Origin: an uncultured Myxococcales bacterium
GTDB taxonomy: Bacteria > Myxococcota_A > UBA9042 > DTJE01
DNA length: 60,863 bases
Reading direction: 5' to 3'
Assembly (NCBI GenBank): GCA_964424165.1
Contig: CAYRIB010000003.1
Location: 1 to 60,863, forward strand
The translations under genes were made by a program, and so were the position numbers. This document shows, one piece after another, positions 46,806-59,948 of this stretch (position 1 is its first letter; every line of letters starts with the position of its first letter). Under the pieces are notes generated by a model that saw only the letters and a program-made list of their open reading frames with translations, had not been told where the DNA came from and did no database searches.

Positions 46806-49319
46806 ATGATGACCCCGTTGTGGAAACGTGACCTAGGCCGCGCCATCGGCCTGCTCGGGCGGATGGCGACTGCGGTTGCCGCATCCCTGGCCTTGCTGCC
46901 GCAGGCGCTTGCGGGCGAGGCGGATCTGAATGTTCCGTCGCTGTCGCAGGTCCAGTTCCTCGGTGGGGTCGGGGGTGACACGCTCCTGCTCGTCGGCCTG
47001 GCCGTCTGCCTTCTGGGCATGGTGTTCGGACTCGTCATGTACGTGCGCCTGAAGAAGCTGCCCGTCCATCGCTCGATGGCCGACATCTCGAGCCTGATCT
47101 ACGAAACGTGCAAGACCTACCTGCTTACCCAGGGCAAGTTCCTGGCCATCCTGTGGTCGTTCATCGCGATCATCATGGTGGTGTACTTCGGCTGGCTCAA
47201 GCCCATCGACCCGGTGCACTCGCACATCCCGGTCTGGGCCAGCGTGTCGATTATCGTCATCTTCAGCATCATCGGGATCCTCGGCAGCTACGGCGTGGCT
47301 TGGTTCGGCATCCGGATCAACACCTTCGCCAATTCCCGAACCGCGTTTGCAAGCCTGCGGGGCAAGCCGTTCCCGGTGTATTCCATTCCGGCCAGTTCCG
47401 GGATGTCGATCGGCATGCTGCTCATCTCGGTCGAACTGATCATCATGCTGGCCATCCTGCTGTTCGTGCCGGGCCAACTCGCAGGCGCCTGTTTCATCGG
47501 GTTCGCGATCGGCGAATCGCTGGGTGCGGCGGCACTGCGCATCGCGGGCGGCATCTTTACGAAGATCGCGGACATCGGTTCCGACCTGATGAAGATCGTG
47601 TTCAAGATCAAAGAGGACGACGCACGCAACCCCGGGGTCATTGCGGACTGCACCGGCGACAATGCCGGCGATTCGGTCGGCCCGACCGCCGACGGGTTCG
47701 AAACCTACGGCGTGACCGGCGTGGCACTGATCACGTTCATCCTTCTGGCCGTCACCAAGGCAGGCTCGCCCGAAGCCAACGCCACCATCCAGGTGCAATT
47801 GCTCGTATGGATCTTCGTGATGCGCGTCCTGATGATCATCACCTCCGCGGTGTCGTATTTCGCCAATGACTTCGTGGCACGGATGCGATTTCTGCAGGCC
47901 GACAAAATGGACTTCGAACAGCCCCTGACCTCGCTGGTCTGGCTGACCTCAATCGTGTCGATCGGCATGACCTTCCTGGCTTCGTGGCTGCTGATCCCGG
48001 ATCTTGGCGGCAACACGACCATGTGGTGGAAGCTCGCCAGCATCATCTCGTGCGGCACCATCGCGGGCGCCCTGATCCCCGAACTCGTGAAGGTCTTCAC
48101 CTCGACCAAGTCCGGCCATGTGCGCGAGGTGCTTACGGCCTCGAAAGAAGGCGGGCCCTCGCTCAACATCCTGTCGGGCTTCGTGGCCGGCAATTTCAGT
48201 GCCTACTGGATGGGCATCACCATCGTGGGTCTCATGGCCATCGCCTATGGCATCGGTACCCTCGGGTTGCACGACCTGATGCACGCGGAGTCCGTGTTCG
48301 CGTTCGGTCTGGTGGCCTTCGGGTTCCTGGGCATGGGCCCGGTGACCATCGCGGTGGACAGTTACGGACCGGTGACCGACAACGCGCAGTCCGTGTTCGA
48401 ACTCTCGACGATCGAGACCCTGCCCAACGCACCGGCCGAAATTGAGCGCGACTTCGGATTCACGCCCGACTTCACGCGCGCCAAGGAACACCTCGAAGAA
48501 GGCGATGGGGCAGGCAACACGTTCAAGGCCACGGCCAAGCCCGTGCTGATCGGAACCGCGGTGGTGGGCGCCACGGCCCTGATCTTCTCGATCATCCAGA
48601 TGCTTGGTGCCGGCTACGGCCCGGAGGTCGTCGAGAGGGCATTGTCGATCCTGAACCCCCGCTTCCTGCTGGGCCTGATCCTCGGCGGGGCCATCATCTA
48701 CTGGTTCACCGGGGCCGCCACCCAGGCCGTGACCACGGGTGCCCACCGGGCCGTGGCCTTCATCAAGAAGCACATCCATCTGGACAGCGGGGCCGAGCGC
48801 GCCTCGGTCACGGACAGCAAGAAGGTCGTTGAAATCTGCACCCAGTATGCCCAGAAGGGCATGTTCAATATCTTCCTGGCCGTGTTCTTCAGCGCCCTGG
48901 CGTTCGCATTCCTGGACCCGTTCATGTTCATCGGCTATCTGATCTCGATCGCGATCTTCGGCTTGTATCAGGCCATCTTCATGGCCAATGCGGGCGGGGC
49001 CTGGGACAATGCCAAGAAGATCGCCGAGACCGAACTCAAGGCCAAGGGCACGCCTCTGCACGACGCGACGGTCGTGGGCGACACCGTGGGTGACCCCTTC
49101 AAGGACACCTCTTCGGTGGCCATGAACCCGGTGATCAAGTTCACCACCCTGTTCGGGGTGCTCGCCGTGGAACTGGCCGAAAAGATCCGCCATCCGGACG
49201 TCGCGAACTTCGGGGTGGTCGAAAACACCCTGCCCACCGTACTGGCCGCCTGCTTCTTCGCGGTGTCCGTGGTCTTCGTGTGGCGCTCGTTCTACGGCAT
49301 GCGGATCAAGGCGGACTAG
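46806..49319 (+). CDS. hppA: membrane-bound proton-translocating pyrophosphatase (divergent, long form)
   Basis: About 16 TM helices. Motifs: KIADIGSDLMKIVFKIKEDDARNPGVIADCTGDNAGDSVGPTADGFETY, DSYGPVTDNA, GNTFKATAKP, GGAWDNAKK, DTVGDPFKDT. GGGAGG lies before the ATGATG at 46806/46809. Confidence 0.93.
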   Translation: MMTPLWKRDLGRAIGLLGRMATAVAASLALLPQALAGEADLNVPSLSQVQFLGGVGGDTLLLVGLAVCLLGMVFGLVMYVRLKKLPVHRSMADISSLIYETCKTYLLTQGKFLAILWSFIAIIMVVYFGWLKPIDPVHSHIPVWASVSIIVIFSIIGILGSYGVAWFGIRINTFANSRTAFASLRGKPFPVYSIPASSGMSIGMLLISVELIIMLAILLFVPGQLAGACFIGFAIGESLGAAALRIAGGIFTKIADIGSDLMKIVFKIKEDDARNPGVIADCTGDNAGDSVGPTADGFETYGVTGVALITFILLAVTKAGSPEANATIQVQLLVWIFVMRVLMIITSAVSYFANDFVARMRFLQADKMDFEQPLTSLVWLTSIVSIGMTFLASWLLIPDLGGNTTMWWKLASIISCGTIAGALIPELVKVFTSTKSGHVREVLTASKEGGPSLNILSGFVAGNFSAYWMGITIVGLMAIAYGIGTLGLHDLMHAESVFAFGLVAFGFLGMGPVTIAVDSYGPVTDNAQSVFELSTIETLPNAPAEIERDFGFTPDFTRAKEHLEEGDGAGNTFKATAKPVLIGTAVVGATALIFSIIQMLGAGYGPEVVERALSILNPRFLLGLILGGAIIYWFTGAATQAVTTGAHRAVAFIKKHIHLDSGAERASVTDSKKVVEICTQYAQKGMFNIFLAVFFSALAFAFLDPFMFIGYLISIAIFGLYQAIFMANAGGAWDNAKKIAETELKAKGTPLHDATVVGDTVGDPFKDTSSVAMNPVIKFTTLFGVLAVELAEKIRHPDVANFGVVENTLPTVLAACFFAVSVVFVWRSFYGMRIKAD

Positions 49320-49338: not shown

Positions 49339-50796
49339 CTAGATCGGGTCGTCGCTTCCGGTGGAATACACCACATCACCCACGTGAACCTGCGGTGTTC
49401 CCGAAGCCCGAAGATATTGCAGATCCGCCATCTCGGTGGTCAGCCGTGCGTAACCCCAGGCGGAACCGGCCTCCCCGTCAGAATGTCGCGCAAGCTGCGC
49501 ACCCAGGGCCCGATTGGCACGCGGCATGCGCCGACGCAGTTCCCCTTCCCGCAGCCACGGGGGCACCTCGTCGCTCAGGCCCGCGAGCACGGCAGCAGGG
49601 TCCGCGGGAATCTGCGGGCGAACCGGGTCCGAAAGCCATACGAGCAGCGATGCCATGGTGCGCCGCCCGCCCTGATCCGCCCCCCACAGCACGCCCCGGG
49701 CCAACAGCAGGCCGAACACGCCGATCGAGAAGCCCATGGGCACGAATACCAGGAGCATGCGCAACGTGGGGCTTGCGGCCGACAGGGTCAGGACCCCAAG
49801 CACGATCGCGCCGAGCAGATTAACGAACGAAAAGCCCATCACCAGCAGGGCTGCCGGCGTGTCATGCGCCAGGGCCCAGGACGCGGCCTCGACGCGCGCA
49901 AAGGCGTCGGGCTCAGGCGCATCGTTCTTCACATCCGCTGCCCCTTCGACATCGGTGCGCAGCAGGCTGCGGAAGTCGTAAACGATGCTGCCCCCGTCGG
50001 TCACCAGCACATCCGCCCCATATTGGGCGTACAGACGCGACACCTCGACGTCGGCCGAAGCCAGGTCACCGCCGAACAGCCAGACCCAGTCACTGGCGCC
50101 CGCGAAGCCGTTACAGGCCACGACGTGGCGCAAGAACGCCCGATCCCGGTCCCGCCCCTCAACCATACGGGCGCCTTTACCGAACACGAACGCGAAGATC
50201 CGGTCCTGCCAGGGACGCCCCGCTGCCCGCCGGGCCAGGGTCGCGAGCGAAAACCCCAGCCACCGCGATGCACCATCCGCCCCTGCCTCGGACCCGGCTT
50301 GATCGGAGGTGTCGCTTTGGGGGTGCAAGACGGCCTGCACCGGGTCTTCGCGACGGCGCACCAGGTCCAAAGCCATTCCCCCGAGCAGCTTCAGGAACTC
50401 CTTGATCGGGGTCGAAAACTCGGACAGGCCCTGGCCTCGGGTCAGCATGGCGATGAAGAACAGGATATAGATAGTGCCGTAGATCAGGAGGATACCCAGA
50501 AATCCGAGTCTGAACAGAAATCGGGCCACGGCCTGGGCCCCGTGCCCGACGGCTCGTGCGATCGCCCCCAAACGCTCCTGAACGGTGATGCGGGCCTGTG
50601 CCTCGGGCCCGAAGTCGTAGAGGATCTCGCCGCTCTGCGTGACCTTCAGCACGCATCGAAAGCGGCGAATCAAACTGCGCAGGGCCGGTTCCGCCTCGGT
50701 TTTCGGCAGCCCCGTCGCCGCCATCAACTGGCCCAGGGACAAGCTCCCTGGTGACTTGCGCACCACCTCGAACAGGGACATTTCGGCCTTGGTCAT
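49339..50796 (-). CDS. hypothetical membrane protein with three internal repeats
   Basis: Trimmed to Met50, which is preceded by GAAGGAG with a 6-nt spacer. TM helices FLFRLGFLGILLIYGTIYILFFIAML, LLVMGFSFVNLLGAIVLGVLTL and LLVFVPMGFSIGVFGLLLA. Repeated ...G.I.YDF modules. Confidence 0.65.
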   Translation of the reverse strand: MTKAEMSLFEVVRKSPGSLSLGQLMAATGLPKTEAEPALRSLIRRFRCVLKVTQSGEILYDFGPEAQARITVQERLGAIARAVGHGAQAVARFLFRLGFLGILLIYGTIYILFFIAMLTRGQGLSEFSTPIKEFLKLLGGMALDLVRRREDPVQAVLHPQSDTSDQAGSEAGADGASRWLGFSLATLARRAAGRPWQDRIFAFVFGKGARMVEGRDRDRAFLRHVVACNGFAGASDWVWLFGGDLASADVEVSRLYAQYGADVLVTDGGSIVYDFRSLLRTDVEGAADVKNDAPEPDAFARVEAASWALAHDTPAALLVMGFSFVNLLGAIVLGVLTLSAASPTLRMLLVFVPMGFSIGVFGLLLARGVLWGADQGGRRTMASLLVWLSDPVRPQIPADPAAVLAGLSDEVPPWLREGELRRRMPRANRALGAQLARHSDGEAGSAWGYARLTTEMADLQYLRASGTPQVHVGDVVYSTGSDDPI

Positions 50797-50882
50797 CTGT
50801 GGCTCCTTCGGAACGTCGCGAACTTGCATTCCGTCCGCCAAAATTCTATAACGCAGTCGTGGGTTTTGCGAGAGGCGGGCAC

Positions 50883-51338
50883 GTGCGGGTTGCGGTACCA
50901 ACGGATGATGGCAGACACGTGGCACGCCGCTTCGGCCGGGCACGGGCGTTTGTGGTCACCGACGTGGACCAGGGACAGATTGCACCTTCGGATGTGCGTC
51001 CGAACCCGATGAGCGCCACCTCGGACCCGCCGCCCAAGACCCGTTTCCGGGCGTCCCACAAGACTTTCCGACCCCATCGCCACCAGATGCTCTTGGACCT
51101 TTTGGCAGACTGCCGTTCGGTGATCGTGTACGGCATCAGCGAACCCCTGCGCCACCTTCTATTCAGTCGCGGCATCGAGGTGGTCTTCACCTCCGAGGAA
51201 CTGGTGGACCGCGTGCTGGCGCTGTTCTCGGTCGGTGCTCTCCGGGATGAATCGCGCAGCGATGAAGCCCCACTCGATGATGGCTCCGACGGGTGGGATG
51301 CCACGCGATTCGGAACCGGGGACGACTACGACGCGTGA
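50883..51338 (+). CDS. NifB/NifX-type (dinitrogenase FeMo-cofactor-binding fold) domain protein with acidic tail
   Basis: GTG 50883 after GAGAGG. VRVAVPTDDGRHVARRFGRARAFVVTDV...LLADCRSVIVYGISEPLRHLLFSRGIEV matches the family pattern. The stop lies 2 nt before the next start. Confidence 0.6.
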   Translation: MRVAVPTDDGRHVARRFGRARAFVVTDVDQGQIAPSDVRPNPMSATSDPPPKTRFRASHKTFRPHRHQMLLDLLADCRSVIVYGISEPLRHLLFSRGIEVVFTSEELVDRVLALFSVGALRDESRSDEAPLDDGSDGWDATRFGTGDDYDA

Positions 51339-51340
51339 AC

Positions 51341-52084
51341 ATGTCGAACGCAGCCGTCGAACTGCGGGATGTAGATCAATCCTTTGCGGGCCGCAAGGTG
51401 CTGGATGGGTGTGCCTTGCGCCTCGAGGCCGGCCGGATCCACGGACTGATCGGGCGCGGAGGCTCGGGCAAGACGCTGCTCACCCGCGTGATCTCGACCC
51501 TGCTGCGCCCGGACGCCGGGATCGTGCGTCTGTTCGGTCGCGAGGTGGACTGGGATGACGATGACCTCGTCCGGTCGCTCCGGGCAGGGATCGGCATGCA
51601 GTTCCAGAACATCGCCCTGTTCGACTTTCTCGACGTCTTCAACAACGTGCTGTTTCCCCTCCGGGCTCGAAAAGGAGATGCGCCTCTCGAAGACTCGGAA
51701 GAACGCGTGATGGGAGCCCTTGCCGCGGTCGGTCTGGCCGCTGCAGCGCGGCACCAGGTGTCCGAGCTGTCGGGGGGAATGCAGAGGCGCGTGGCCATCG
51801 CGCGCGCCCTGGTCACCGGGGCCGAACTTCTGATCCTCGATGACCCCACGGGCGGTCTGGACCCGGTCACGTCGTCACGCACCTTCGATCTGATCGCCCA
51901 CATCCACGAACAACAGCGCAAGACCATTCTGGTCGTTTCGCACGACCTCGACCGTCTGGAGAGGATCTGCGATCGCTACCACGTGCTCGATTCCGGCCGG
52001 ATCCTGTTTTCGGGGACCTTGGACGAGGGCAGGGGGTCGGCCAATCCGGGCGTTTCGGGATTGTTGACGGGGTACACGGCATGA
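51341..52084 (+). CDS. mlaF: MlaF-like ABC ATPase 1 (Walker B Glu replaced by Asp)
   Basis: GRGGSGKT, Q-loop MQFQ, LSGGMQRRVAIARAL, LLILDDPTGGLD, VVSHDLD. 247 aa. Confidence 0.88.
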   Translation: MSNAAVELRDVDQSFAGRKVLDGCALRLEAGRIHGLIGRGGSGKTLLTRVISTLLRPDAGIVRLFGREVDWDDDDLVRSLRAGIGMQFQNIALFDFLDVFNNVLFPLRARKGDAPLEDSEERVMGALAAVGLAAAARHQVSELSGGMQRRVAIARALVTGAELLILDDPTGGLDPVTSSRTFDLIAHIHEQQRKTILVVSHDLDRLERICDRYHVLDSGRILFSGTLDEGRGSANPGVSGLLTGYTA

Positions 52085-52851
52085 ACGCGGGACTCGCCAA
52101 CGTCGGCCGCGCATGGCTGGACCTTTGCACCACCGTGGGGGGTCTGGGACGCCTGCAGTGGGCGATCTTCCAGGCCATGTTCCCGCCCCGCTTCGACTAC
52201 GACGAAACCTTGCGGCAGTTCTACAAGGTCGGGGTTCAGAGCCTGCCCGTGGTGATCGTGACCGCACTGTTCACCGGGGCCATCATGGTGGTTGGTGGCG
52301 GAACCGCGGTGCGCAATACGGGGGCCACCTCCCTGGTCGGGTGGGTCGCGGGAACGGCGGTGCTGGCCGAGGTCGGCCCGGTCCTGATCGGCCTCATGTT
52401 CTCGGGGCGGGTCGGGGCCAACAACACCGCGGAACTCGGCACCATGAGCGTGACCGATCAGGTCAATGCCCTGCGGGTTCTGGGGCTGGACCCGATCGGG
52501 TATCTCGTGGTGCCACGCTTCGTGTCGATGATTGTGATGCTGGGCCTGCTCACCTGCATCGGGGACCTGTTCGCCCTGACCGGGGGGGCCATTACGTGCC
52601 AGTTCCTGCTCGACATCGACATGCGGGTCTACTGGCAATCGGTGATGGACAGCCACTTGATCAACGAGTTCGTCATGGGCATCGTCAAGGGCGTGGCCTT
52701 CGGTTGGAGCATCTCGGTGGTGTCTTGCTACTATGGGATGAACGTGTCAGGAGGGGCCGAGGGCGTTGGCCGAGCGGTCAACAACTCGGTGGTTGCGGCC
52801 GCCATCGGCATCTTCGTGGTGAACTACCTCATTACGTCGGTGTGGCTGTGA
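52081..52851 (+). CDS. mlaE: MlaE-like ABC permease 1
   Basis: ATGA overlap with ATPase 1. ...FSGRVGANNTAELGTMSVTDQVNALRVLGLDPIGYLVVPRF... is the MlaE/YrbE signature region. 256 aa. Confidence 0.88.
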   Translation: MNAGLANVGRAWLDLCTTVGGLGRLQWAIFQAMFPPRFDYDETLRQFYKVGVQSLPVVIVTALFTGAIMVVGGGTAVRNTGATSLVGWVAGTAVLAEVGPVLIGLMFSGRVGANNTAELGTMSVTDQVNALRVLGLDPIGYLVVPRFVSMIVMLGLLTCIGDLFALTGGAITCQFLLDIDMRVYWQSVMDSHLINEFVMGIVKGVAFGWSISVVSCYYGMNVSGGAEGVGRAVNNSVVAAAIGIFVVNYLITSVWL

Positions 52852-52859
52852 GCAGCGGG

Positions 52860-53621
52860 ATGAAGTCAGTGATTGGGAACCTCCCGTTCATGGACCTTCC
52901 AGGAAGGTACGCCAACCTGCTGGGGCAGACCCTGCGTGCGCTGTTTCGAAGCCCTCCGTCGCGCACCGTGCTGCTCGATCAGATGCACAATGTGGGCAAC
53001 CGCTCGATCCTGTTCATCACCGTGACCATCGGATTTCTGGGGTTCATGCTCGTGTACGAGGCGTGCATCAACGCCCTCAAGGTCATTCCCGAGCTGTCGG
53101 GCGTTGGAGGCCTTTTCATTTCGACCTTCGTCAGCGAGTTCGGCCCCACGATCACGGCCCTGATGATCGCGATCCGGGTGGGCAGCGGCATCGCGGCCGA
53201 ACTCGGGTCCATGAAGGTCACCGACCAGCTCGACGCGATGCGACTGACCAATACCGACCCCGTGGAATACGTGCTTGCCCCCCGTTTCGTGGCCACGTCG
53301 ATCATGACCGTGGTCTTGTCGATTTACGCGGTGGCCGTGGGCACGGCAGCGGGCATGCTGGTCGCGGCCACCCGGTTCCAGATCAATCCCAAGACCTTCC
53401 TGACGCTGCGCAACGTGGACTGGGCCGACTTTGGCACGGGTCTGACCAAGGCCGTAGCCTACGGGATCGTCATCCCGATCATTGCCGCGGAGTCCGGATT
53501 CCGCACCGAGGGCGGCTCGGAAGGGGTAGGGTGGGCCACGACCCGCGCCGTGGTCAACACATCGTTCGCAGTGATCATGCTCGATTTCGTGATTGGTTCG
53601 ATCTTCTATCTCGTGACGTGA
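52860..53621 (+). CDS. mlaE: MlaE-like ABC permease 2 (divergent paralog)
   Basis: Track ORF 52113..53621 trimmed to ATG 52860, 8 nt after the permease 1 stop. ...AIRVGSGIAAELGSMKVTDQLDAMRLTNTDPVEYVLAPRF... 253 aa. Confidence 0.85.
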   Translation: MKSVIGNLPFMDLPGRYANLLGQTLRALFRSPPSRTVLLDQMHNVGNRSILFITVTIGFLGFMLVYEACINALKVIPELSGVGGLFISTFVSEFGPTITALMIAIRVGSGIAAELGSMKVTDQLDAMRLTNTDPVEYVLAPRFVATSIMTVVLSIYAVAVGTAAGMLVAATRFQINPKTFLTLRNVDWADFGTGLTKAVAYGIVIPIIAAESGFRTEGGSEGVGWATTRAVVNTSFAVIMLDFVIGSIFYLVT

Positions 53622-53628
53622 GGGCCCG

Positions 53629-54372
53629 GTGTTCGAGTTTCGCGAAGTCAGCAAGGCCTTTGGGGACCATCCGGTATTCTCGCGCCTCTCGCTGACCCTG
53701 CACGACCGTGAAATCACCTACATCATCGGCAGCAGCGGCACGGGCAAGAGCGTGTTGATCAAGCTCGGACTCGGACTCATCCACCCCGACGAGGGCCGGA
53801 TCCTCGTGGACGGACAGGACGTCACGGACCTCTCCGAGGCGGCATGGCGCCCGATTCGCAAGCGTAACGTCCTGGTGTTTCAGCATTCCACCCTCTTCGA
53901 TTCCATGACCCTGCGCGAGAACGTGGCCCTGCCGCTGCGGCGACATGCAGGGCTGTCCCGCCAGGCCGCACTCGATCACGCGGTCGAATACCTCGAACTC
54001 ATGCAGATGGCCGATCAGGCCGATCGGATGCCGCAGGAGATCGGCCCTTCCGAACGCAAACGGGCGGCCATTGCGCGCGCCCTGGCCTTGTCTCCGCAGT
54101 GCGCGATCCTTGACGAACCGACCACCGGTCTGGACGTGCTGACCGCAGCCTCGGTCGACGAGGTGATCGTCCGCCTCGGGCGCGTCCTGGGCAAAACCGT
54201 CATCGTGGTGTCGCACGACATCCGCTCGATCTTCGGCGTTGCGGACCGCATCATCTTTTTGTATAAGGGGCAAGTGCATCTGGATGGCAGCCCGGGCGAC
54301 TTTCGGAAGTCGACGGACCCCGTGGTTCGCCAGTTCGTCAATGGGGATGCATCCGGCCCGATGGAGACCTGA
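53629..54372 (+). CDS. mlaF: MlaF-like ABC ATPase 2 (signature motif degenerate)
   Basis: GTG start. GSSGTGKS, Q-loop VFQH, AILDEPTTGLD, VVSHDI. The signature position reads MPQEIGPSERKRAAIARAL instead of LSGG. Confidence 0.85.
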   Translation: MFEFREVSKAFGDHPVFSRLSLTLHDREITYIIGSSGTGKSVLIKLGLGLIHPDEGRILVDGQDVTDLSEAAWRPIRKRNVLVFQHSTLFDSMTLRENVALPLRRHAGLSRQAALDHAVEYLELMQMADQADRMPQEIGPSERKRAAIARALALSPQCAILDEPTTGLDVLTAASVDEVIVRLGRVLGKTVIVVSHDIRSIFGVADRIIFLYKGQVHLDGSPGDFRKSTDPVVRQFVNGDASGPMET

Positions 54373-54375
54373 TCA

Positions 54376-55386
54376 ATGGCAGGGCGCGTCAAGAAAGTCG
54401 AGGTCAAGGTCGGGGCCTTGATCCTGCTGGCCGTGGGCCTGCTGATCGGATTCCTGGTACTGCTGGGCGATTTCAGTTGTGCGCCCCAGGCGGTTCTGTA
54501 CGCGGATTTCCCGACCAGCGCGGACCTGAAGATCGGCGCCCCGGTCAAGGTCACAGGAGTGACCATCGGCAAGGTGACGGCCGTGGAGTTGTGGGGCGGG
54601 CGTCCGGATCCGGCGCACGACGGCAAGCGGGTCGACGTGCGCGTCCAGATGAAGTTGACCGCAGACTCGCTGAATCTTCTGCGGGCCGACAGCCGGTTCT
54701 ATATCACAACCCTGGGGCTGCTCGGCGAACGCTACATCGAGATCGACCCCGGGACTCCGCAGGCCCCTGCGGTTCAGGCCGGCCAGGTCCTCGATGGCAT
54801 CGGGCCGATGCGGATGGAACTGGTGGGTGCGGATGCCTCGAAGCTGATCGGGGACCTCACGGTGCTCGTCAAGGACAATCGGGGGGACATCAACGGCCTG
54901 ATTCATCATTCCCGCAATGCGGTGCAGCAGATCGACGAACTGCTCGTCACCAACAAAGCAACGATTCAAGAAATTATCGTCAACACTAATGAATCATTGA
55001 CTTCCATACGCCACCTCACAGCCCAGATTGAACGGGCCATCGGCAACGGCGACGACGTGGGCCACATCCTGGCATCCCTGCGCGTGGTCAGCGAGCGTCT
55101 CGAGGAGGCGTCCCCCGCGCTCAAGGTCATGGCCGGGATCCTGAACAAGGCCGACAAGGGTGTCGGCGAGGTGACGACCATCCTGGCCACGGCGCGCCAG
55201 ATTGTGACCGATGCCCAGCAGGACGTCGGGGCAACGCTCAAGAATGCCCGTCAGATCACGGAAGCGGTCCGCGACGGCCGTGGCAGCATCGGGGCCTTCG
55301 TGGCCGATCGCGAACTCTACGACAACGTCGTGGAAATGCTCAAGGACCTCAAGCGCCATCCCTGGAAGTTCCTGTGGAAAGAATGA
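54376..55386 (+). CDS. mlaD: MlaD/MCE-domain protein with long helical C-terminal extension
   Basis: N-terminal TM helix (VGALILLAVGLLIGFLVLLG). One MCE domain (LYADFPTSADLKIGAPVKVTGVTIGKVTAVEL...GLLGERYIEIDPG). About 200 further aa are predicted helical. 336 aa. Confidence 0.88.
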   Translation: MAGRVKKVEVKVGALILLAVGLLIGFLVLLGDFSCAPQAVLYADFPTSADLKIGAPVKVTGVTIGKVTAVELWGGRPDPAHDGKRVDVRVQMKLTADSLNLLRADSRFYITTLGLLGERYIEIDPGTPQAPAVQAGQVLDGIGPMRMELVGADASKLIGDLTVLVKDNRGDINGLIHHSRNAVQQIDELLVTNKATIQEIIVNTNESLTSIRHLTAQIERAIGNGDDVGHILASLRVVSERLEEASPALKVMAGILNKADKGVGEVTTILATARQIVTDAQQDVGATLKNARQITEAVRDGRGSIGAFVADRELYDNVVEMLKDLKRHPWKFLWKE

Positions 55387-56069
55387 TCGGCCAGAGTCCG
55401 AGACGTCGGACATGGTTCGCAACGCTGACGGCGGTGGGCACGCTCGCGCTGCTGTCCTCTTCGGCATTCGCAGTTCCCGATGCCAGCCACAGCCCCTTGA
55501 CCATGCTCGAGCGCATCGCGTTCGCGGACCGTCTGGCTCGGGGCGGCCGCCTCGGTCAGGCTTTCGCGGGCTATCTCGTGGTGCTCAAGGACTACCCGAC
55601 GTGGTGGCTGCCCATGCTCAAGGCGGGCGTGACGGCCCGAGCCATGCGCATGCCGCCGGACACCGTGCGGGAACTGGTGTCACGGGCCATGGGCCTGTCC
55701 CCGGAAGGCCCTTATGCGGGCCTGATCGCCATGCTGCTCGGGCTCGAGGCCGGGCAACCGCCTCCTGCACTTCCAGGCGACCATGCGTTGCCCGGCGTAG
55801 AGAACCTGCCCGGGGACAAAAGGGACCTGATCCGCGACCGGCAGGACTTTGCTCGGGCCCTGCAGGCCGAACGGTCGGACAGCCGGGTCGAAGCCAAGGC
55901 CCTCTATCGCGAACTCATCCAACGACGTCCGACGTTCGTGGCGGCACGAGTCCGGCTGGCCCGGATGCTCTTCGCCGATGGTGCGTCGGACGAGGCGAGA
56001 GGCCTGTTGATGAACACCCGCGCCACGTCCCTCTTACCGGCGCGGATTCAGGCGATGAGCCGACGATGA
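55383..56069 (+). CDS. secreted helical-repeat (TPR-like) protein, function unknown
   Basis: The ATG at 55383 forms an ATGA overlap with the mlaD stop. Signal peptide TLTAVGTLALLSSSAFA|VPD. The remainder is Ala/Leu/Arg-rich and helical. Confidence 0.6.
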   Translation: MIGQSPRRRTWFATLTAVGTLALLSSSAFAVPDASHSPLTMLERIAFADRLARGGRLGQAFAGYLVVLKDYPTWWLPMLKAGVTARAMRMPPDTVRELVSRAMGLSPEGPYAGLIAMLLGLEAGQPPPALPGDHALPGVENLPGDKRDLIRDRQDFARALQAERSDSRVEAKALYRELIQRRPTFVAARVRLARMLFADGASDEARGLLMNTRATSLLPARIQAMSRR

Positions 56070-56228
56070 ACAAAGACTTCAAACAAAGATGCGTCGAGCG
56101 TGTGAAGAACGCAAAAATATTGTTGACGACCTCGCCCGACCCTTATAAGAATAGATGGGCTCGATGGATCCCGCAGGTTGGGACCTCGATGCAGGCGCCT
56201 CTGTAGAGGATTGCGACGGGAGCTTGCC

Positions 56229-57986
56229 ATGACTGTCGGGTTGATCATTTCGTTGGTGGGCGCTGTGGTTGCCCTGATCGGCACGCTCGCCTTCTCCTGG
56301 GTGGACGAAGATGTCGTCAAGTTCGCCGACGTCGTGCTCCATTCGGGCTATGCCTGGTGGACGGGGGTGATCTTCCTGATCACCAGTTTCCTGGGTCTGG
56401 GCGCTTGCGTCGCCGGGCTGATCACTCCGCGCAAGAAGCTTTTCGCGATGATTGGCCTCGGGCTTGCCGTGGCCGGGTTCGTGTTCTTCCTGCTGACTCC
56501 CTTCCAGGTCCGATCGATGATCGAGCAAATGAAGGCCGGTGGCCTGCTCGACGTGACCACCACCACGGCCATGTCCACGGGATTCATCATGGCGTTTTTG
56601 GGCACCCTGGCCATGGTCGTCGGATACGTGTGGACCCTTGGGGCCCAGCCGATCCTCGGACCGGACGATCGCCTTCTGCGCGTGGCGCTGCTGTGGCAGG
56701 GCAAGCTGATCAAGGAAACCACGTTCACGGAACATCGCGACATCACGGTCGGCGACGGCGTGAAATCGGATTTCGTTCTTCCGACCAAGGACTTCGGGAA
56801 GTCTACGTCCCTGTTCCGGTACGACCACAAAACCGGCTACGATGTGGGGCTGCATCGTGAGATGCAGGGGCGCGTCAGCATCGGCGGCAATGTCACTTCG
56901 GTCGCCGAACACGTCAAGAAGCACACGGGCGATGCGCTTGGCACGAACTGGGTGTCGGTCGGCAGCGGCGACTGGGGCGTGATGGAATTCGGGGACGTGG
57001 AACTGTTCTTCCAGTTCGTGCGTCCCACCGTGATCGTGGGCCGGCAACGCGCCCTCGCCATGGACCATACGATTGTGGCCGCCATCGTGGGCGCCCTGTT
57101 CGTGGTGGCCGCGTTCTTCACCGTGGCCCAGTTCGCGTGGAATCCATTCGGGAACATCGAGCAGCGCAAGGTCGAAAAGCGGCTCATGTCCGTGAACGTG
57201 AACGTGCTCGAAGAAAAGGTCGAACAGTTGCTCGAGATCGGCGAAGAAGAGGACACCGTCGGCAAGAAGGCCGAAGGTGAGGAAGGCAAGTTCGGCGACC
57301 CGGACAAGGACCCGTCTCTTGAAAGCAAGGTTCCCAAGCGCGAAGGCATGATGGTGTCGAAGATCGACCCCAAGAAGATCGGGCTTGCGAACGTGCTGTC
57401 CAACAGCATGAAGTCGGGCGCGATATCGTCGATCCTCAGCGACAACGCGGATGCCTTCGACAACAAGATGGCCGTGGCCATGGCCGGAACCGGCTCCGAA
57501 CTTTCGATCGGCTACGGGGCCGGCGGCATGGGCTTCAAGGGCACGGGCTCCGGCGGTGGCGGCACCGGGGGCTACGGCCGCATCCACGGGCTGGGTCGGG
57601 TCGACACCGGCGGCGGAATGGGCATGCGCGCGGGCCTGGGCAAGAAGGGCACGGGCAAGGTCGGAAAGTTCAGTCCCGGCGGCATGTCGGGTTCCGGCTT
57701 CTGTCAGCGCAATGACATCCAGTCCAAGGTGATGCAGCGGGCGGGCGCCATCCGCGCCTGCTACGAGCAGCAGCTCCAGATTCACGAGAATCTCGCCGGC
57801 AAGGTGACGGTCCGCTGGACCATCAACCTCGAGGGCGTGGTCGACGGCGCTTCCGTGCTCGACAGCACCCTGGGAAACAGTGCCGTCGAACAGTGCGTGA
57901 TGCGTGCCATCCGCCGAATCCGGTTCGCGCCACCGGAAGGCGGCGTTTGCGTGGTACAGTGGCCGTTCGTGTTCAACCCGGGCTAG
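56229..57986 (+). CDS. TonB-like protein: polytopic N-terminus, Gly-rich linker, AgmX/PglI-type (TonB-C-like) C-terminal domain
   Basis: Trimmed to Met18, which is preceded by GGGAG. Four N-terminal TM helices, a soluble module, a fifth TM helix, a charged E/K region, a GGxG-rich linker, and the C-terminal CQRNDIQSKVMQRAGAIRACYEQQL...KVTVRWTINLEGVV...VEQCVMRAIRRIRFAPPEGGVCVVQWPFVF. Confidence 0.75.
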   Translation: MTVGLIISLVGAVVALIGTLAFSWVDEDVVKFADVVLHSGYAWWTGVIFLITSFLGLGACVAGLITPRKKLFAMIGLGLAVAGFVFFLLTPFQVRSMIEQMKAGGLLDVTTTTAMSTGFIMAFLGTLAMVVGYVWTLGAQPILGPDDRLLRVALLWQGKLIKETTFTEHRDITVGDGVKSDFVLPTKDFGKSTSLFRYDHKTGYDVGLHREMQGRVSIGGNVTSVAEHVKKHTGDALGTNWVSVGSGDWGVMEFGDVELFFQFVRPTVIVGRQRALAMDHTIVAAIVGALFVVAAFFTVAQFAWNPFGNIEQRKVEKRLMSVNVNVLEEKVEQLLEIGEEEDTVGKKAEGEEGKFGDPDKDPSLESKVPKREGMMVSKIDPKKIGLANVLSNSMKSGAISSILSDNADAFDNKMAVAMAGTGSELSIGYGAGGMGFKGTGSGGGGTGGYGRIHGLGRVDTGGGMGMRAGLGKKGTGKVGKFSPGGMSGSGFCQRNDIQSKVMQRAGAIRACYEQQLQIHENLAGKVTVRWTINLEGVVDGASVLDSTLGNSAVEQCVMRAIRRIRFAPPEGGVCVVQWPFVFNPG

Positions 57987-58131
57987 AGGGTCTGGCGCCG
58001 TCAACGTGGTTGACTTTGGCGCCGGCCACGGGTACAAGAACAGGGCGGGCCGCCGGTTTGGTTGGGTTCCCCGAGGGCAACTGCGGGGTTGTTTTGGGTC
58101 CGAGGCATTGAAATCAGGGAGGGGTTCTCAG

Positions 58132-58803
58132 ATGTTTGAATTCATCGGCGAGGCCTTTGACAAGGGCGGCTTGAACATGTACGTGATCCTCATCACGTTC
58201 ATCTTCCTGCTGGGCTTGCTGGTCGAACGCATCATCGTTTTGTACTTCCAGTCCAACGTGGACAAGGAAGGCTTCACGAAGGTGCTCACGCGGAACATCC
58301 TGGCGGGCGACTTGCGCAACGCGCTCAAGTTGTGCTCGATCTCGAAGTTCCCGCTGGCCAAGATCCTGCAGGCCGGACTGATGAAGGCCAAGGAGTCCGA
58401 TGCCGAGGTTCAGGCCGCGATGGACGAAGCAGCCCTGCGCGAGATGCCCCGCATCGAGAAGCGCATCGGCTATCTGGCCATGCTCGGTAACGTCGGCGTG
58501 CTCATGGGTCTGCTGGGAACCATTCTCGGCCTGATCCGTTCGTTCGGCGCCGTGGCGAATGCCAGTGCCGCAGAAAAGGCGACCGAGCTCGCGAAGGGCA
58601 TTTCCGAGGCCATGTACAACACGGCCTTTGGTCTGACCGTCGCCATCATCGCGGTCGTGGCGTATGCCTTCATGCAGTCCAAGTCGCAGCACCTGGTCGA
58701 CGACATCAACGAAACCACGGTGAGCCTGCTGAACCTGATCACGTCCAACCGTGACAAGTTCCAGGGCGAGAAGGCGAACACGCGGGTCGAGGACAACGCC
58801 TAG
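58132..58803 (+). CDS. exbB: MotA/TolQ/ExbB family proton channel
   Basis: Trimmed to Met77, which is preceded by GGGAGGGG. LGNVGVLMGLLGTILGLIRSF...ISEAMYNTAFGLTVAIIAVVAY is typical of ExbB/TolQ. 223 aa. Confidence 0.9.
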   Translation: MFEFIGEAFDKGGLNMYVILITFIFLLGLLVERIIVLYFQSNVDKEGFTKVLTRNILAGDLRNALKLCSISKFPLAKILQAGLMKAKESDAEVQAAMDEAALREMPRIEKRIGYLAMLGNVGVLMGLLGTILGLIRSFGAVANASAAEKATELAKGISEAMYNTAFGLTVAIIAVVAYAFMQSKSQHLVDDINETTVSLLNLITSNRDKFQGEKANTRVEDNA

Positions 58804-58856
58804 GCCGGCGACAGGTTCCGAAGCGGAATGCGCTTCGGGAAACGACGGAGGAACCC

Positions 58857-59354
58857 ATGGGCGGCGTTTCTGAACCGACCCCAGGAAAGGGGAAGAAGGA
58901 CCTCAACGTCGAGTTGAACCTGGTCCCCTTCATCGACCTGATGACCGTGTGCGTGACGTTCCTGCTGCTGACCGCGGTCTGGACCCAGACGACCCGGATC
59001 AACATCGACCAGTCGGTGGCCAAGCCGCAGCCCAAGCAGGAACAGAAGGAACCGCCCAAGCGTCTGACCATCGTGGTCGACCAGGCCGGCTACACGGTCA
59101 AGTGGGCAGATCAGCGCCAGGAGACCTTTCCCAAGGTCGACAGCAACTACAACGAGGTCGCCCTGCGGGAGCATCTCGAGAAGCTGATCAAGGACGAGGC
59201 CGAGAAGCTTCCCAAGGATCAGAAGGTCATCGTGGCCCCCGAGGACAAGGTGGCCTACAAGGACATGGTGCAGGTCATGGATGTGTGCATCCGTGTCGGC
59301 CTGCCCAACATCATGGTAGCCGATGCCGCATCAGCCATGGCCGGGATGATGTAG
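58857..59354 (+). CDS. exbD: ExbD/TolR family protein 1
   Basis: LNLVPFIDLMTVCVTFLLL (the conserved TM Asp) and a periplasmic domain ...VIVAPEDKVAYKDMVQVMDVCIRVG. 165 aa. Confidence 0.88.
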   Translation: MGGVSEPTPGKGKKDLNVELNLVPFIDLMTVCVTFLLLTAVWTQTTRINIDQSVAKPQPKQEQKEPPKRLTIVVDQAGYTVKWADQRQETFPKVDSNYNEVALREHLEKLIKDEAEKLPKDQKVIVAPEDKVAYKDMVQVMDVCIRVGLPNIMVADAASAMAGMM

Positions 59355-59363
59355 GAGGTTTCG

Positions 59364-59948
59364 ATGCCCATTGTCGCACCAGGCTCCCGGATCGGCTCGA
59401 GCGTCCGGATGAAGGGCCTGAAAGTCCAGAAGGGGAAGGGCGGCCGCAGCATGCTGGTCTACCTCAACCTGACCCCGATGATCGACATGTTCACGATTCT
59501 GGTCGTCTTCCTGCTGATGACCTTCTCGGCAACCGGCGAAATCCTGTTCACCCAGAAGGACATCCAGTTGCCCAGGGCATTTGCGGACAAACCCCTCGAA
59601 CGCGTGCCGATCATCGGGATCTCGCAGGAAGTCATTCTGGTGGAAGGCGAGAAGGTGATGTTCACCAGCGGCGTCCAGGAAAAGAACTACCCCGACGCCA
59701 AGCTGCCCGAGCTCGCCAAGATGCTGAAAACGACTCACGAGCAGTTCATCCACGGCAATCCCATGCCGAGCGACAAGGAACGTGCCGAGCGCTGGATCGA
59801 GGAATCGAAGCAGATCATCATCCAGGCTGACCAGGGCGTGCCCTTCGAAGTCATCCGCCTCGTCATGACCACCGCGGCCTTCGAGGGCTATTCCGCGATC
59901 AACTTCGCGGTCGTGCCCAAGGGCACGGGAACCTTCGCTGCCGAATAA
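59364..59948 (+). CDS. exbD: ExbD/TolR family protein 2
   Basis: YLNLTPMIDMFTILVVFLLM (TM Asp) and ...IIQADQGVPFEVIRLVMTTAAFEG. 194 aa. Starts 9 nt after exbD 1. Confidence 0.85.
   Translation: MPIVAPGSRIGSSVRMKGLKVQKGKGGRSMLVYLNLTPMIDMFTILVVFLLMTFSATGEILFTQKDIQLPRAFADKPLERVPIIGISQEVILVEGEKVMFTSGVQEKNYPDAKLPELAKMLKTTHEQFIHGNPMPSDKERAERWIEESKQIIIQADQGVPFEVIRLVMTTAAFEGYSAINFAVVPKGTGTFAAE

What the first reader, a model, noticed from the sequence alone, without database searches (positions are those of the whole stretch)
51341..55386. Mla/MCE-type transporter built from two different ATPases and two different permeases, with complementary degenerate ATP-site motifs
The gene order is ATPase1 (51341..52084), permease1 (52081..52851), permease2 (52860..53621), ATPase2 (53629..54372), MCE protein (54376..55386). 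The junctions are an ATGA overlap, then gaps of 8, 7 and 3 nt. ATPase1 has a canonical Walker A (GRGGSGKT) and a canonical signature (LSGGMQ). Its Walker B reads LLILDDP, so Asp168 (gac, 51842..51844) replaces the catalytic Glu. ATPase2 has a canonical Walker A (GSSGTGKS) and Walker B (AILDEP). Its signature position reads EIGPSERKR (IGPSE, 54040..54054) instead of LSGGx. In an ABC nucleotide-binding dimer, each ATP site combines Walker A/B of one subunit with the signature of the other. Both deviations therefore fall in the same composite site, giving one degenerate and one consensus site. That pattern is the hallmark of obligate heterodimeric ABC systems (TAP1/2, MRP1, TM287/288 type). The characterised MlaFEDB uses homodimeric F2E2. 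Actinobacterial Mce systems pair two YrbE permeases with a single ATPase species. To my knowledge an MCE system with heterodimeric ATPases, heterodimeric permeases and a built-in asymmetric ATPase has not been described. No STAS (MlaB-like) or MlaC-like gene is present. The single-MCE protein carries roughly 200 extra helical residues, more like tunnel- or needle-forming MCE proteins than E. coli MlaD.
Basis: partly seen in the sequence, partly recalled or inferred. Interest (0 to 1): 0.75.

Follow-up and report, generated by a model that had tools for sequence, protein, structure and literature searches.

The report
Asymmetric two-ATPase MCE lipid transporter
This operon encodes an Mla/MCE-type envelope lipid transporter built from two different ATPases and two different permeases, so that one of its two ATP sites is crippled by design; I found no published description of this layout for the family, yet it is conserved across many Myxococcota.

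Summary
Five tightly packed genes encode ABC ATPase F1, MlaE permeases E1 and E2, ABC ATPase F2 and a long MCE protein D. Alignment with E. coli MlaF puts F1 Asp168 on the catalytic Glu and F2 IGPSE on the LSGGM signature.

The pattern is not a quirk of this contig. In 83 related loci, almost all labelled Myxococcota, all 60 F2 orthologues keep Walker A, Walker B Glu and the H-loop His but have a non-consensus signature. All 43 F1 orthologues keep LSGGM/Q but have a crippled catalytic half. That half fails in one of two ways: Walker B Glu to Asp, or H-loop His to Ser. Every defect falls in the same composite ATP site. F1, F2, E1 and E2 are each monophyletic paralogue clades.

The best reading is therefore an obligate F1F2-E1E2-D6 transporter with one degenerate and one consensus ATP site.

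D (transmembrane helix, MCE domain, about 190 helical residues) is a known "long MlaD/needle" type. Heterodimeric permeases are known from mycobacterial Mce systems. A heterodimeric ATPase with a degenerate site was not found in the searchable literature for this family.

Verdict: a new variant of a known kind. Physical heterodimerisation remains inferred.

The parts
51341..52084 (+). F1: MlaF-like ABC ATPase and the non-catalytic partner. Walker A GRGGSGKT is at 51452-51475, the consensus signature LSGGM at 51767-51781, Walker B LLILDD with Asp168 in place of the catalytic Glu at 51842-51844, and H-loop His201 at 51941-51943.
   Evidence: ORF. ABC_tran scores 105 bits. The alignment to E. coli MlaF is. 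Close homologues P0002-P0025, wherever Walker B could be read, carry DDP plus (L/I)SGGM.
52081..52851 (+). E1: MlaE-family permease, paralogue 1. Its start overlaps the F1 stop (ATGA).
   Evidence: PF02405 scores 226.5 bits. The best solved-structure match is P. aeruginosa MlaE at 121.7 bits, against 87.4 and 62.9 for YrbE1A and YrbE1B. The E1 clade is monophyletic with 76 sequences.
52860..53621 (+). E2: MlaE-family permease, paralogue 2. It is 27% identical to E1.
   Evidence: PF02405 scores 182.4 bits. The E2 clade is monophyletic and averages 33% identity to E1.
53629..54372 (+). F2: MlaF-like ABC ATPase and the catalytic partner. Walker A GSSGTGKS is at 53728-53751, the degenerate signature IGPSE at 54040-54054, Walker B ILDEP with Glu163 at 54115-54117, and H-loop His196 at 54214-54216.
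   Evidence: The gapless alignment to E. coli MlaF scores 155.9 bits. The best NCBIfam model is MlaF at 173.6 bits, below the equivalog cut-off of 441. All 60 orthologues have a degenerate signature and a consensus catalytic half.
54376..55386 (+). D: single long MCE protein. It has an N-terminal transmembrane helix (residues 2-30), an MCE domain (38-142), a helical "needle" region (147-300) and a strongly conserved Trp/Lys-rich C-terminal tail (...KDLKRHPWKFLWKE).
   Evidence: MlaD PF02470 scores 65.8 bits. The precomputed Pfam family Helical_needle PF28544 is listed for D and most of its homologues. The top Foldseek matches are full-length Mce1 subunits, followed by MlaD. Alignment A2 shows the conserved C-terminus.
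55374..56069 (+). TPR protein with a signal peptide. The probable start is ATG 55383, which forms an ATGA overlap with the D stop. It is a possible periplasmic partner of D in this subclade.
   Evidence: TPR_19 scores 26.6 bits; TPR_Slam scores 33 bits, below its cut-off. The overlap is shown. It is conserved directly after D in L001-L004, L010 and L012.
50751..51338 (+). Small Nitro_FeMo-Co-family (PF02579) protein that ends 2 nt before F1. It is a conserved neighbour, but membership in the system is uncertain.
   Evidence: The Pfam match scores 37 bits. It sits next to F1 in L001 (opposite strand), L003, L009, L010 and L012.
56178..59948 (+). Context block: an AgmX/PglI/TonB_C-type protein (56178-57986), ExbB/TolQ-like (58132-58803) and two ExbD/TolR-like genes (58857-59354, 59364-59948). 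The block is conserved downstream of the transporter in the closest relatives. A functional link is not shown.
   Evidence: NCBIfam NF033768 scores 90 bits and tonB_Cterm 40 bits. Synteny holds in L001-L004, L010 and L012.

Best explanation
The five genes encode one hetero-oligomeric Mla/MCE (type VIII) ABC transporter, most likely F1·F2·E1·E2·D6.

**Assembly (inferred).** E1 and E2 form a heterodimeric membrane module under a homohexameric ring of D. The roughly 190-residue helical extension of D forms a periplasm-spanning tube. F1 and F2 form a heterodimeric ATPase. By gene order, F1 probably docks on E1 and F2 on E2.

**ATP sites (shown from sequence).**
- Site 1 combines F1 Walker A, Walker B and H-loop with the F2 signature. 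It is degenerate. F1 keeps Walker A Lys and the Q-loop Gln, so the site should still bind ATP. It lacks the catalytic Glu (Asp168) and faces IGPSE instead of LSGGx.
- Site 2 combines F2 Walker A, Walker B Glu163 and His196 with F1 LSGGM. It is fully consensus and should do the hydrolysis.

**Function (inferred by analogy with degenerate-site ABC transporters).** ATP held in site 1 would keep the ATPase dimer engaged, or would tune it. Hydrolysis at site 2 alone would drive the E1E2 conformational cycle that moves lipid or another hydrophobic cargo between the inner membrane and the D tunnel. Transport direction and substrate are unknown.
For: **In this window.** Motif positions are fixed by alignment to solved MlaF.

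**Synteny.** The order F1-E1-E2-F2-D is kept in relatives that are only 49-57% identical in F1. Forty of 83 non-redundant loci carry F1, E1, E2 and F2 together. F1-E1 is never found apart from E2-F2. The E1-E2 tandem is the most conserved element.

**Motif census.**
- 60 of 60 F2 orthologues have consensus Walker A, Walker B Glu and His wherever those motifs were covered (a few are cut by contig ends), together with a non-LSGG signature. The variants are IGPSE, VGPGE, VAPSE, VGPSQ, LPAGE, IGDGL, LGDGL, LGDGM, LSDGM, LGEGM and FGDGM, among others.
- 43 of 43 F1 orthologues have LSGGM/Q and a degenerate catalytic half. In 16 this is Walker B DDP with His. In 27 it is DEP with the H-loop His replaced by Ser.
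- Two different lesions in F1 both hit the site that already carries the F2 signature lesion. None hits the other site.
- F1 keeps its Walker A GK[ST] and Q-loop Gln wherever they were covered.

**Phylogeny.** F1a, F1b, F1a+b, F2, E1 and E2 are each monophyletic. F1 and F2 are about 35% identical, and E1 and E2 about 33%.

**Definition used.** The composite site, and the Glu-to-Asp, H-loop and signature degeneracy, are defined as in PMC7756269.

**Coupling signals.** ATGA overlaps and 3-8 nt gaps suggest coupled translation. E1/E2 coordinates overlap in L001 and L003.
Against: - No physical or structural evidence for the heterodimer could be produced, because no multimer prediction tool was available.
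- Thirteen loci (Polyangiaceae including Sorangium, Chondromyces and Polyangium, plus L040) have E1-E2, F2 and mostly D but no F1 within at least 2.5 kb upstream. F2 there still carries LGDGM. Either F1 is encoded elsewhere or F2 can work without it.
- Six to eight loci have E1-E2 with no ATPase nearby, and six have a lone E2-like gene.
- Acidobacterial MlaF-like proteins with Ser at the catalytic position sit in simple E-F pairs. A non-consensus catalytic residue alone therefore does not prove a heteromer.
- The loci are phylogenetically related, so the counts are not independent events.
Confidence: 0.8

Rival explanations
1. E1E2 is driven by an F2 homodimer. F1 is an accessory, alternative or regulatory ATP-binding subunit, for example one that replaces MlaB or swaps in under some conditions, and is not an obligate half of the motor.
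For: Thirteen loci keep E1-E2 and F2, mostly with D, but have no F1 gene nearby. Their F2 signature is the same mild LGDGM or LSDGM seen where F1 is present. F1 clades are less conserved than F2: 48-55% against 62% mean identity.
Against: - An F2 homodimer would place a non-consensus signature in both ATP sites. In this window's clade that signature is badly altered (IGPSE, VGPGE), with the Ser and first Gly both lost.
- F1's consensus LSGGM/Q is conserved in 43 of 43 orthologues. That conservation is explained only if it completes F2's active site.
- F1 is first in the operon and overlaps E1 by ATGA.
Confidence: 0.12
2. Two separate homodimeric transporters, F1 with E1 and F2 with E2, merely abut and share or compete for the single MCE protein D.
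For: The gene order places each ATPase next to one permease. E. coli MlaFEDB and most bacterial importers are homodimeric (own knowledge; PMC9882608).
Against: - F1-E1 and E2-F2 never occur apart. E1-E2 adjacency survives even when both ATPase genes are gone or moved.
- An F1 homodimer would lack a catalytic Glu or His in both sites, and an F2 homodimer would lack a proper signature in both.
- The lesions are strictly complementary across 43 F1 and 60 F2 orthologues.
- Only one D gene is present.
Confidence: 0.04
3. The deviant motifs reflect relaxed selection in a decaying or non-functional paralogous system.
For: Many MlaF-like proteins in metagenomes carry non-consensus residues: 63 of the 120 best hits to F1 and 21 of 68 single-domain hits to F2.
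Against: - All five ORFs are intact, and within-clade conservation is 57-62% for E1, E2 and F2.
- Walker A, Q-loop and D-loop are retained in both ATPases wherever they were covered.
- The lesions are confined to one composite site across a phylum-level clade.
Confidence: 0.02

Closest known systems
E. coli, P. aeruginosa and A. baumannii MlaFEDB (type VIII ABC, MlaF2E2D6B2; PDB 6XBD, 7CH8, 6Z5U)
   Same: The same three protein families are present. F2 aligns gaplessly with MlaF. E1 and E2 match MlaE best among solved structures. The MCE domain of D superposes on MlaD with TM-score up to about 0.87 normalised to the target.
   Different: - MlaF and MlaE are homodimers with two consensus ATP sites. 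Here there are two paralogous ATPases and two paralogous permeases, with one degenerate site.
- No MlaB (STAS) or MlaC domain was found among the genes scanned from 49.3 to 60.8 kb; MlaA was not searched for specifically.
- D is 336 aa with a long helical extension, against 183 aa for MlaD.
- The NCBIfam equivalog cut-offs for MlaF, MlaE and MlaD are not reached.
Mycobacterial Mce1/Mce4 (YrbE1A/B heterodimer, MceG homodimer, Mce1A-F heterohexamer; PDB 8FED; PMC9882608)
   Same: Both have a heterodimeric MlaE-type permease pair. Both have MCE proteins with a long helical needle, and the best Foldseek matches of D are Mce1F and Mce1B over about 310 columns.
   Different: - The Mce ATPase is a homodimer of one consensus protein, MceG, encoded elsewhere and shared between systems.
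- Mce systems have six different MCE subunits. Here there is one.
- E1 and E2 both score higher against Gram-negative MlaE than against YrbE1A/B. This suggests, but does not prove, an independent duplication.
Long-MlaD MlaEFD systems (Veillonella parvula; PMC10665443) and Brucella MpcEFDA (PMC12436622)
   Same: Both have a single MCE protein built from a transmembrane helix, an MCE domain and an extended helical region. MpcD is 331 aa and D is 336 aa. Both lack MlaC and are proposed to bridge the envelope.
   Different: - Those systems are modelled with homodimeric E and F.
- V. parvula MlaD ends in a beta-barrel.
- Mpc has a STAS domain fused to its permease and a PqiC-like lipoprotein, MpcA.
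- Here D ends in a conserved Trp/Lys-rich tail and is followed by a TPR protein.
Heterodimeric ABC exporters with one degenerate site (TM287/288, TmrAB, BmrCD, PatAB, TAP1/2, MsRv1273c/72c)
   Same: The logic of asymmetry is the same. One subunit has a non-consensus Walker B Glu (often Asp) and/or H-loop. The other has a non-consensus signature. Together they give one degenerate and one consensus site (PMC7756269; titles).
   Different: Those are type IV exporters with transmembrane and ATPase domains fused in each half, and their membrane fold is unrelated. Here the ATPases are separate polypeptides of the MlaF lineage, serving a type VIII MCE transporter.

Membership tests
Mla/MCE-type (type VIII) ABC transporter, broad sense | MlaE-family permease (PF02405) | tested here: met
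   E1 scores 226.5 bits and E2 182.4 bits against a cut-off of 22.5.
Mla/MCE-type (type VIII) ABC transporter, broad sense | MCE/MlaD-domain protein encoded with the ABC module | tested here: met
   D scores 65.8 bits for PF02470 against a cut-off of 25.1. Its start lies 3 nt after the F2 stop.
Mla/MCE-type (type VIII) ABC transporter, broad sense | MlaF-lineage ABC ATPase | tested here: met
   The best NCBIfam and PDB matches of F2 are MlaF. F1 matches MlaF at 125-134 bits among many ABC families.
E. coli-type Mla pathway (orthologues of MlaFEDB plus MlaC and MlaA) | Proteins reach the NCBIfam equivalog cut-offs for MlaF, MlaE and MlaD | tested here: not met
   The scores are: MlaF 173.6 and 135.1 against 441; MlaE 149-152 against 315; MlaD 64.8 against 135.
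E. coli-type Mla pathway (orthologues of MlaFEDB plus MlaC and MlaA) | STAS protein MlaB and periplasmic MlaC encoded with the system | tested here: not met
   The genes scanned from 49.3 to 60.8 kb carry no STAS or MlaC domain. The rest of the window and genome was not scanned.
Actinobacterial Mce operon | Two YrbE permeases followed by six Mce genes | tested here: not met
   Two permeases are present but only one MCE gene. TIGR00996 scores 69.9 against a cut-off of 140.5. E1 and E2 are closer to MlaE than to YrbE1A/B.
ABC transporter with heterodimeric ATPase domains and one degenerate ATP site | Two distinct ATPase paralogues co-encoded with one transporter | tested here: met
   F1 and F2 are 31% identical. 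They form separate monophyletic clades. They are co-encoded in 40 of 83 loci.
ABC transporter with heterodimeric ATPase domains and one degenerate ATP site | The non-consensus catalytic residue (Walker B Glu or H-loop His) in one ATPase and the non-consensus signature in the other fall in the same composite site, while the second site is fully consensus | tested here: met
   This holds in the window and in 43 of 43 F1 and 60 of 60 F2 orthologues. The definition follows PMC7756269.
ABC transporter with heterodimeric ATPase domains and one degenerate ATP site | A physical F1-F2 heterodimer, with ATP hydrolysis confined to one site | not testable with these tools
   This needs co-purification, cryo-EM or multimer modelling, together with mutant ATPase assays.

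The most novel reading that the evidence does not exclude
The conserved eleven-gene block encodes one envelope-spanning machine. The block runs from the FeMo-co-family small protein through F1-E1-E2-F2-D, the TPR protein and the TonB_C/AgmX-like protein to ExbB and two ExbD genes. In this reading, an ATP-driven MCE needle transporter with a built-in regulatory (degenerate) ATP site is mechanically or functionally coupled to a proton-motive-force-driven TonB/Tol-like motor and a periplasmic TPR adaptor at the outer membrane. The small cytoplasmic FeMo-co-family protein would take the place of MlaB.
Probability: 0.12. Interest if true: 0.85.

Novelty: new variant of a known kind. Interest (0 to 1): 0.65.

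Why it matters
**Where the design is new.** Degenerate ATP sites have been studied almost only in fused type IV exporters and eukaryotic ABC proteins (PMC7756269). Here the same design appears in a lipid-trafficking MCE transporter with separately encoded ATPases. It is conserved across many Myxococcota and was reached by two different catalytic lesions in F1.

**Why it is experimentally useful.** The system has a single hydrolytic site. That makes it a natural tool for asking how ATP binding and ATP hydrolysis each drive lipid movement, and in which direction, in Mla/MCE transporters. Direction remains an open question for the family (PMC10212509 title; PMC10665443 discussion).

**Practical consequences.**
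- The "MlaF" and "MlaE" annotations in these genomes hide four non-equivalent subunits.
- Surveys that assume an E2F2 stoichiometry, or that set MlaF aside as those authors did, will miss this class.

Tried and rejected
1. **Fused tandem ATPases as evidence for F1-F2 pairing.** The exhaustive search with F2 found MlaF-MlaF proteins of about 520-600 aa in Myxococcota, with a consensus N half and a degenerate signature in the C half. I tested whether they are F1-F2 fusions. They are not. The two halves are each other's closest relatives (43% identity), and the genes are orphans with no MlaE or MlaD neighbours. They are a parallel case, not evidence for F1-F2 pairing.
2. **Promoter and terminator scan of 49.0-60.9 kb.** Counts were at or below shuffled expectation, so the scan says nothing about operon limits.
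4. **Acidobacterial context.** I looked for a split version of the system. The MlaF-like protein with Ser at the catalytic position sits in a plain E-F pair. The long D of Granulicella is a solitary gene whose neighbouring ATPase, from its consensus motifs (LADEPTGNLD), looks like an unrelated ABC ATPase. This stays unexplained.
5. **Lone DDP-type ATPase P0065.** It has no MlaE neighbour.
7. **Multimer modelling.** A linker-fused F1-F2 model was considered and not attempted.

Full report

Yes, to the base. The six-frame ORF list shows five consecutive + strand ORFs: 51341..52084 (F1), 52081..52851 (E1), 52860..53621 (E2), 53629..54372 (F2) and 54376..55386 (D). A GTG at 51293 could lengthen F1, but the database copy is the 247-aa form. 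The junctions are an ATGA overlap, then gaps of 8, 7 and 3 nt.

Pfam assigns ABC_tran to F1 (105 bits) and F2 (100 bits), MlaE to E1 (226 bits) and E2 (182 bits), and MlaD to D (66 bits). NCBIfam places all of them nearest the Mla/MCE models, but below every equivalog cut-off.

F2 aligns without a single gap to E. coli MlaF (PDB 6XBD chain I). IGPSE (residues 138-142, 54040..54054) lies on LSGGM, and ILDEP on MFDEP. F1 aligned to the same MlaF sequence puts LILDDP on IMFDEP. Asp168 (GAC, 51842..51844) therefore takes the place of the catalytic Glu, while LSGGM, Walker A, the Q-loop Gln and the H-loop His are all consensus. F1 and F2 are 31% identical to each other. E1 and E2 are 27% identical.

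**2. Is it conserved, or a one-off?**

A search with F1 returned a discrete set of about 24 clusters at 46-59% identity. Wherever a source names them, they are labelled Myxococcota or "Deltaproteobacteria" MAGs. All in which Walker B could be read have DDP and (L/I)SGGM.

Their contigs show the same gene order, F1-E1-E2-F2-D. This is followed by a TPR protein, a protein of about 590 aa, ExbB and two ExbD genes, and is preceded by a Nitro_FeMo-Co-family gene.

A scan of one genome per species with an E2 alignment returned 80 loci. Almost all are labelled Myxococcota: Sorangium, Polyangium, Chondromyces, Haliangium, Kofleriaceae, Sandaracinaceae, Labilithrix and Bradymonadia. A few carry doubtful labels.

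I mapped the window's proteins onto all loci with tblastn. I then read the motif residues by alignment to F2 (checked in the multiple alignment).

The result is strikingly regular.
- **F2.** All 60 F2-type ATPases keep G-x4-GK[ST], the Q-loop Gln, Walker B D-E and the H-loop His wherever those motifs were covered; a few sequences are cut by contig ends. All have a non-consensus signature: IGPSE, VGPGE, VAPSE, VGPSQ, LPAGE, IGDGL, LGDGL, LGDGM, LSDGM, LGEGM, FGDGM and others.
- **F1.** All 43 F1-type ATPases keep LSGGM/Q but have a defective catalytic half. In 16 it is Walker B D-D with His, as in this window. In 27 it is Walker B D-E with the H-loop His replaced by Ser (VSSD for VSHD).
- **Pairing.** The F2 signature variants partnered with the two F1 types do not overlap.

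In neighbour-joining trees F1a, F1b, F1a+F1b and F2 are each monophyletic against consensus MlaF-like proteins. E1 and E2 are each monophyletic. These are distance trees and are indicative only.

**3. What follows**

An ABC ATP site is made of Walker A, Walker B, the Q-loop and the H-loop of one ATPase domain and the signature of the other. Glu-to-Asp, H-loop and signature changes are the recognised marks of a degenerate site (PMC7756269).

Every lesion seen here lies in the site formed by F1's catalytic half and F2's signature. Every residue of the other site (F2's catalytic half plus F1's signature) is consensus in every orthologue. This pattern makes sense only if F1 pairs with F2.

The two alternative F1 lesions (Glu to Asp, or His to Ser) occur in sister clades. 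They look like independent hits on a site already disabled by the partner's signature. No hit falls on the other site.

The gene-arrangement census agrees:
- 40 of 83 non-redundant loci carry F1, E1, E2 and F2 together. In 25 of them D is adjacent.
- The E1-E2 tandem is the most conserved unit. It survives where F2 has been inverted and where no ATPase gene is nearby.
- F1-E1 is never found apart from E2-F2.

I therefore read the system as F1·F2·E1·E2·D6 with one degenerate and one consensus ATP site (confidence about 0.8). Two parts are inference: the assembly itself, and the idea that the degenerate site holds ATP to keep or tune the dimer while the other site turns over.

**4. Evidence that cuts the other way**

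- Thirteen loci have E1-E2, F2 and mostly D but no F1 within at least 2.5 kb upstream of E1. These include the cultured Sorangium, Polyangium and Chondromyces genomes. In the Sorangium, Polyangium and Chondromyces-type loci F2 lies on the opposite strand. F2 carries the same LGDGM signature as in loci that have F1. F1 may be encoded elsewhere, much as mceG is in mycobacteria, or F2 may work alone. I could not search those genomes further. This keeps alive a rival in which F2 forms the motor as a homodimer and F1 is accessory (about 0.12).
- Six to eight loci have E1-E2 only.
- Six loci have a lone E2-like permease. These form a subclade of E2 and sit among unrelated genes.
- Acidobacterial MlaF-like proteins with Ser at the catalytic position sit in plain E-F pairs. 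A deviant catalytic residue alone is therefore not proof of a heteromer. The complementarity is what carries the argument.

**5. The MCE protein**

An AlphaFold2 model built on a 58-sequence alignment has a mean pLDDT of 81, falling to 51-73 within residues 211-290. It gives a transmembrane helix at 2-30, an MCE beta domain at 38-142 and helices from 147 to 333.

The best Foldseek matches are full-length Mce1 subunits (8FED chains F and B, about 310 aligned columns but very high rmsd). MlaD follows, matching over the MCE domain only. The precomputed Pfam family "Helical_needle" (PF28544) is recorded on D and most of its homologues.

Long MlaD proteins (transmembrane helix, MCE domain and a helical region) together with an MlaEFD-only core are described as widespread (PMC10665443). 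Brucella MpcD (331 aa) is modelled as a needle of about 250 Å (PMC12436622).

One detail stands out. The last 40 or so residues of D are its most conserved part outside the MCE domain (...DRELYD...KDLKRHPWKxLWKE). I suggest, as inference only, that this Trp/Lys-rich tail is the distal contact to the outer membrane or to the TPR protein. The probable ATG of the TPR gene (55383) overlaps D's stop codon.

**6. Comparison with known systems**

- **Mla/MCE type VIII transporter, broad sense.** All three families are present, so it is a member.
- **E. coli Mla pathway.** It is not an orthologue. The equivalog cut-offs are missed, and no MlaB or MlaC was found among the scanned genes.
- **Actinobacterial Mce operon.** It is not one. 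There is one MCE gene rather than six. E1 and E2 both score higher against Gram-negative MlaE than against YrbE1A/B, which hints at an independent permease duplication.
- **Degenerate-site heterodimeric exporters.** It shares its asymmetry logic with TM287/288, TmrAB, BmrCD, TAP1/2 and Rv1273c/72c, but on an unrelated membrane fold and with free-standing ATPases.

**7. Novelty**

Six full-text searches found no description of heterodimeric MlaF, of paired MlaE outside Actinobacteria, or of a degenerate site in an MCE transporter. They combined MlaF, MlaE, MlaD and MCE with heterodimer, degenerate, Myxococcus or Myxococcota, and paralogue-style names.

The one broad phylogenomic survey I read set MlaF aside because of annotation uncertainty. 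It notes only "several duplications" of MlaDE in Gracilicutes. Public annotations of these proteins are generic.

The library is limited to open-access papers and preprints, so absence is not proof. I rate this a new variant of a known kind, with interest 0.65.

**8. Side findings**

- Degenerate MlaF-like ATPases are common in environmental data. They make up 63 of the 120 best hits to F1 and 21 of 68 single-domain hits to F2.
- Myxococcota also encode orphan tandem MlaF-MlaF fusions with a degenerate C-half signature. These arose by their own internal duplication.
- A second cassette type, F1-E1-E2-F2 with no adjacent D, exists.

Asymmetry in this ATPase lineage therefore seems to have arisen more than once.

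Noticed in passing
window 50751-51338 (+): A small Nitro_FeMo-Co-family (PF02579) protein ends 2 nt before F1. It is kept next to F1 in L001 (opposite strand), L003, L009, L010 and L012. It might be a cytoplasmic accessory factor where MlaB is missing; that idea is pure speculation.
   Followed up: partly
window 55374-59948 (+): The TPR protein probably starts at ATG 55383, overlapping D's stop as ATGA. It is followed by an AgmX/PglI/TonB_C-type protein, ExbB and two ExbD genes. The same block follows the transporter in L001-L004, L010 and L012, and partly in L013, but not in the more distant Polyangia loci.
   Followed up: partly
L007 and L008 7218-8837; proteins P0076-P0119: A large group of MlaF-like ATPases of about 280 aa, the named ones from Acidobacteria, has Walker B YDSP, with Ser in place of the catalytic Glu. 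The signature and, in most, the H-loop are consensus. They sit in simple MlaE-MlaF pairs with no second ATPase nearby. In Granulicella the long MlaD-type gene is solitary (L093). How a homodimer lacking the catalytic base would work is unexplained.
   Followed up: partly
P0241-P0244, P0391-P0509; L089 7001-8599; L090 7001-8656: Tandem fused MlaF-MlaF proteins of about 520-600 aa occur in Myxococcota. The N half is fully consensus. The C half has a degenerate signature (VSAGE, ISSGQ, ISNGE). They are encoded as orphan genes with no MlaE or MlaD neighbours. The two halves are each other's closest relatives, so this is an independent origin of asymmetry. They could serve the E1-E2-only loci; this was not tested.
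   Followed up: partly
L011, L014, L015, L016, L021, L024 (E2-like gene, at about 7001-7700 in most): A monophyletic subclade of E2-like permeases stands alone, with no E1, ATPase or MCE gene in the flanks held for these loci. In L011 the neighbours are an S41 peptidase, a PEGA-domain protein and a Dicty_CTDC-repeat protein.
   Followed up: partly
L028, L033, L035, L042, L043, L045, L047, L049, L050, L056: In Sorangium, Polyangium, Chondromyces and related Polyangiaceae the cluster is rearranged to E1 and E2 (+), F2 (-), D (+). No F1 gene lies within 6-7 kb upstream, and F2 still has the LGDGM signature.
   Followed up: no
L005 8001-11226; L092 6001-9156: A second cassette type, F1(DDP)-E1-E2-F2(LPAGE in L005), has no adjacent MCE gene and lies beside a methylmalonyl-CoA-mutase gene. 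L005 comes from the same lake metagenome as L009, which carries the full F1-E1-E2-F2-D type. The two may be paralogous systems in related organisms.
   Followed up: no
window 46806-49319 (+) and 49339-50943 (-): Upstream lie an 837-aa multi-pass membrane protein that looks like a proton-pumping pyrophosphatase (judged by eye from the sequence, not tested) and a 534-aa membrane protein with a weak HTH_IclR match. Neither appears related to the transporter.
   Followed up: no
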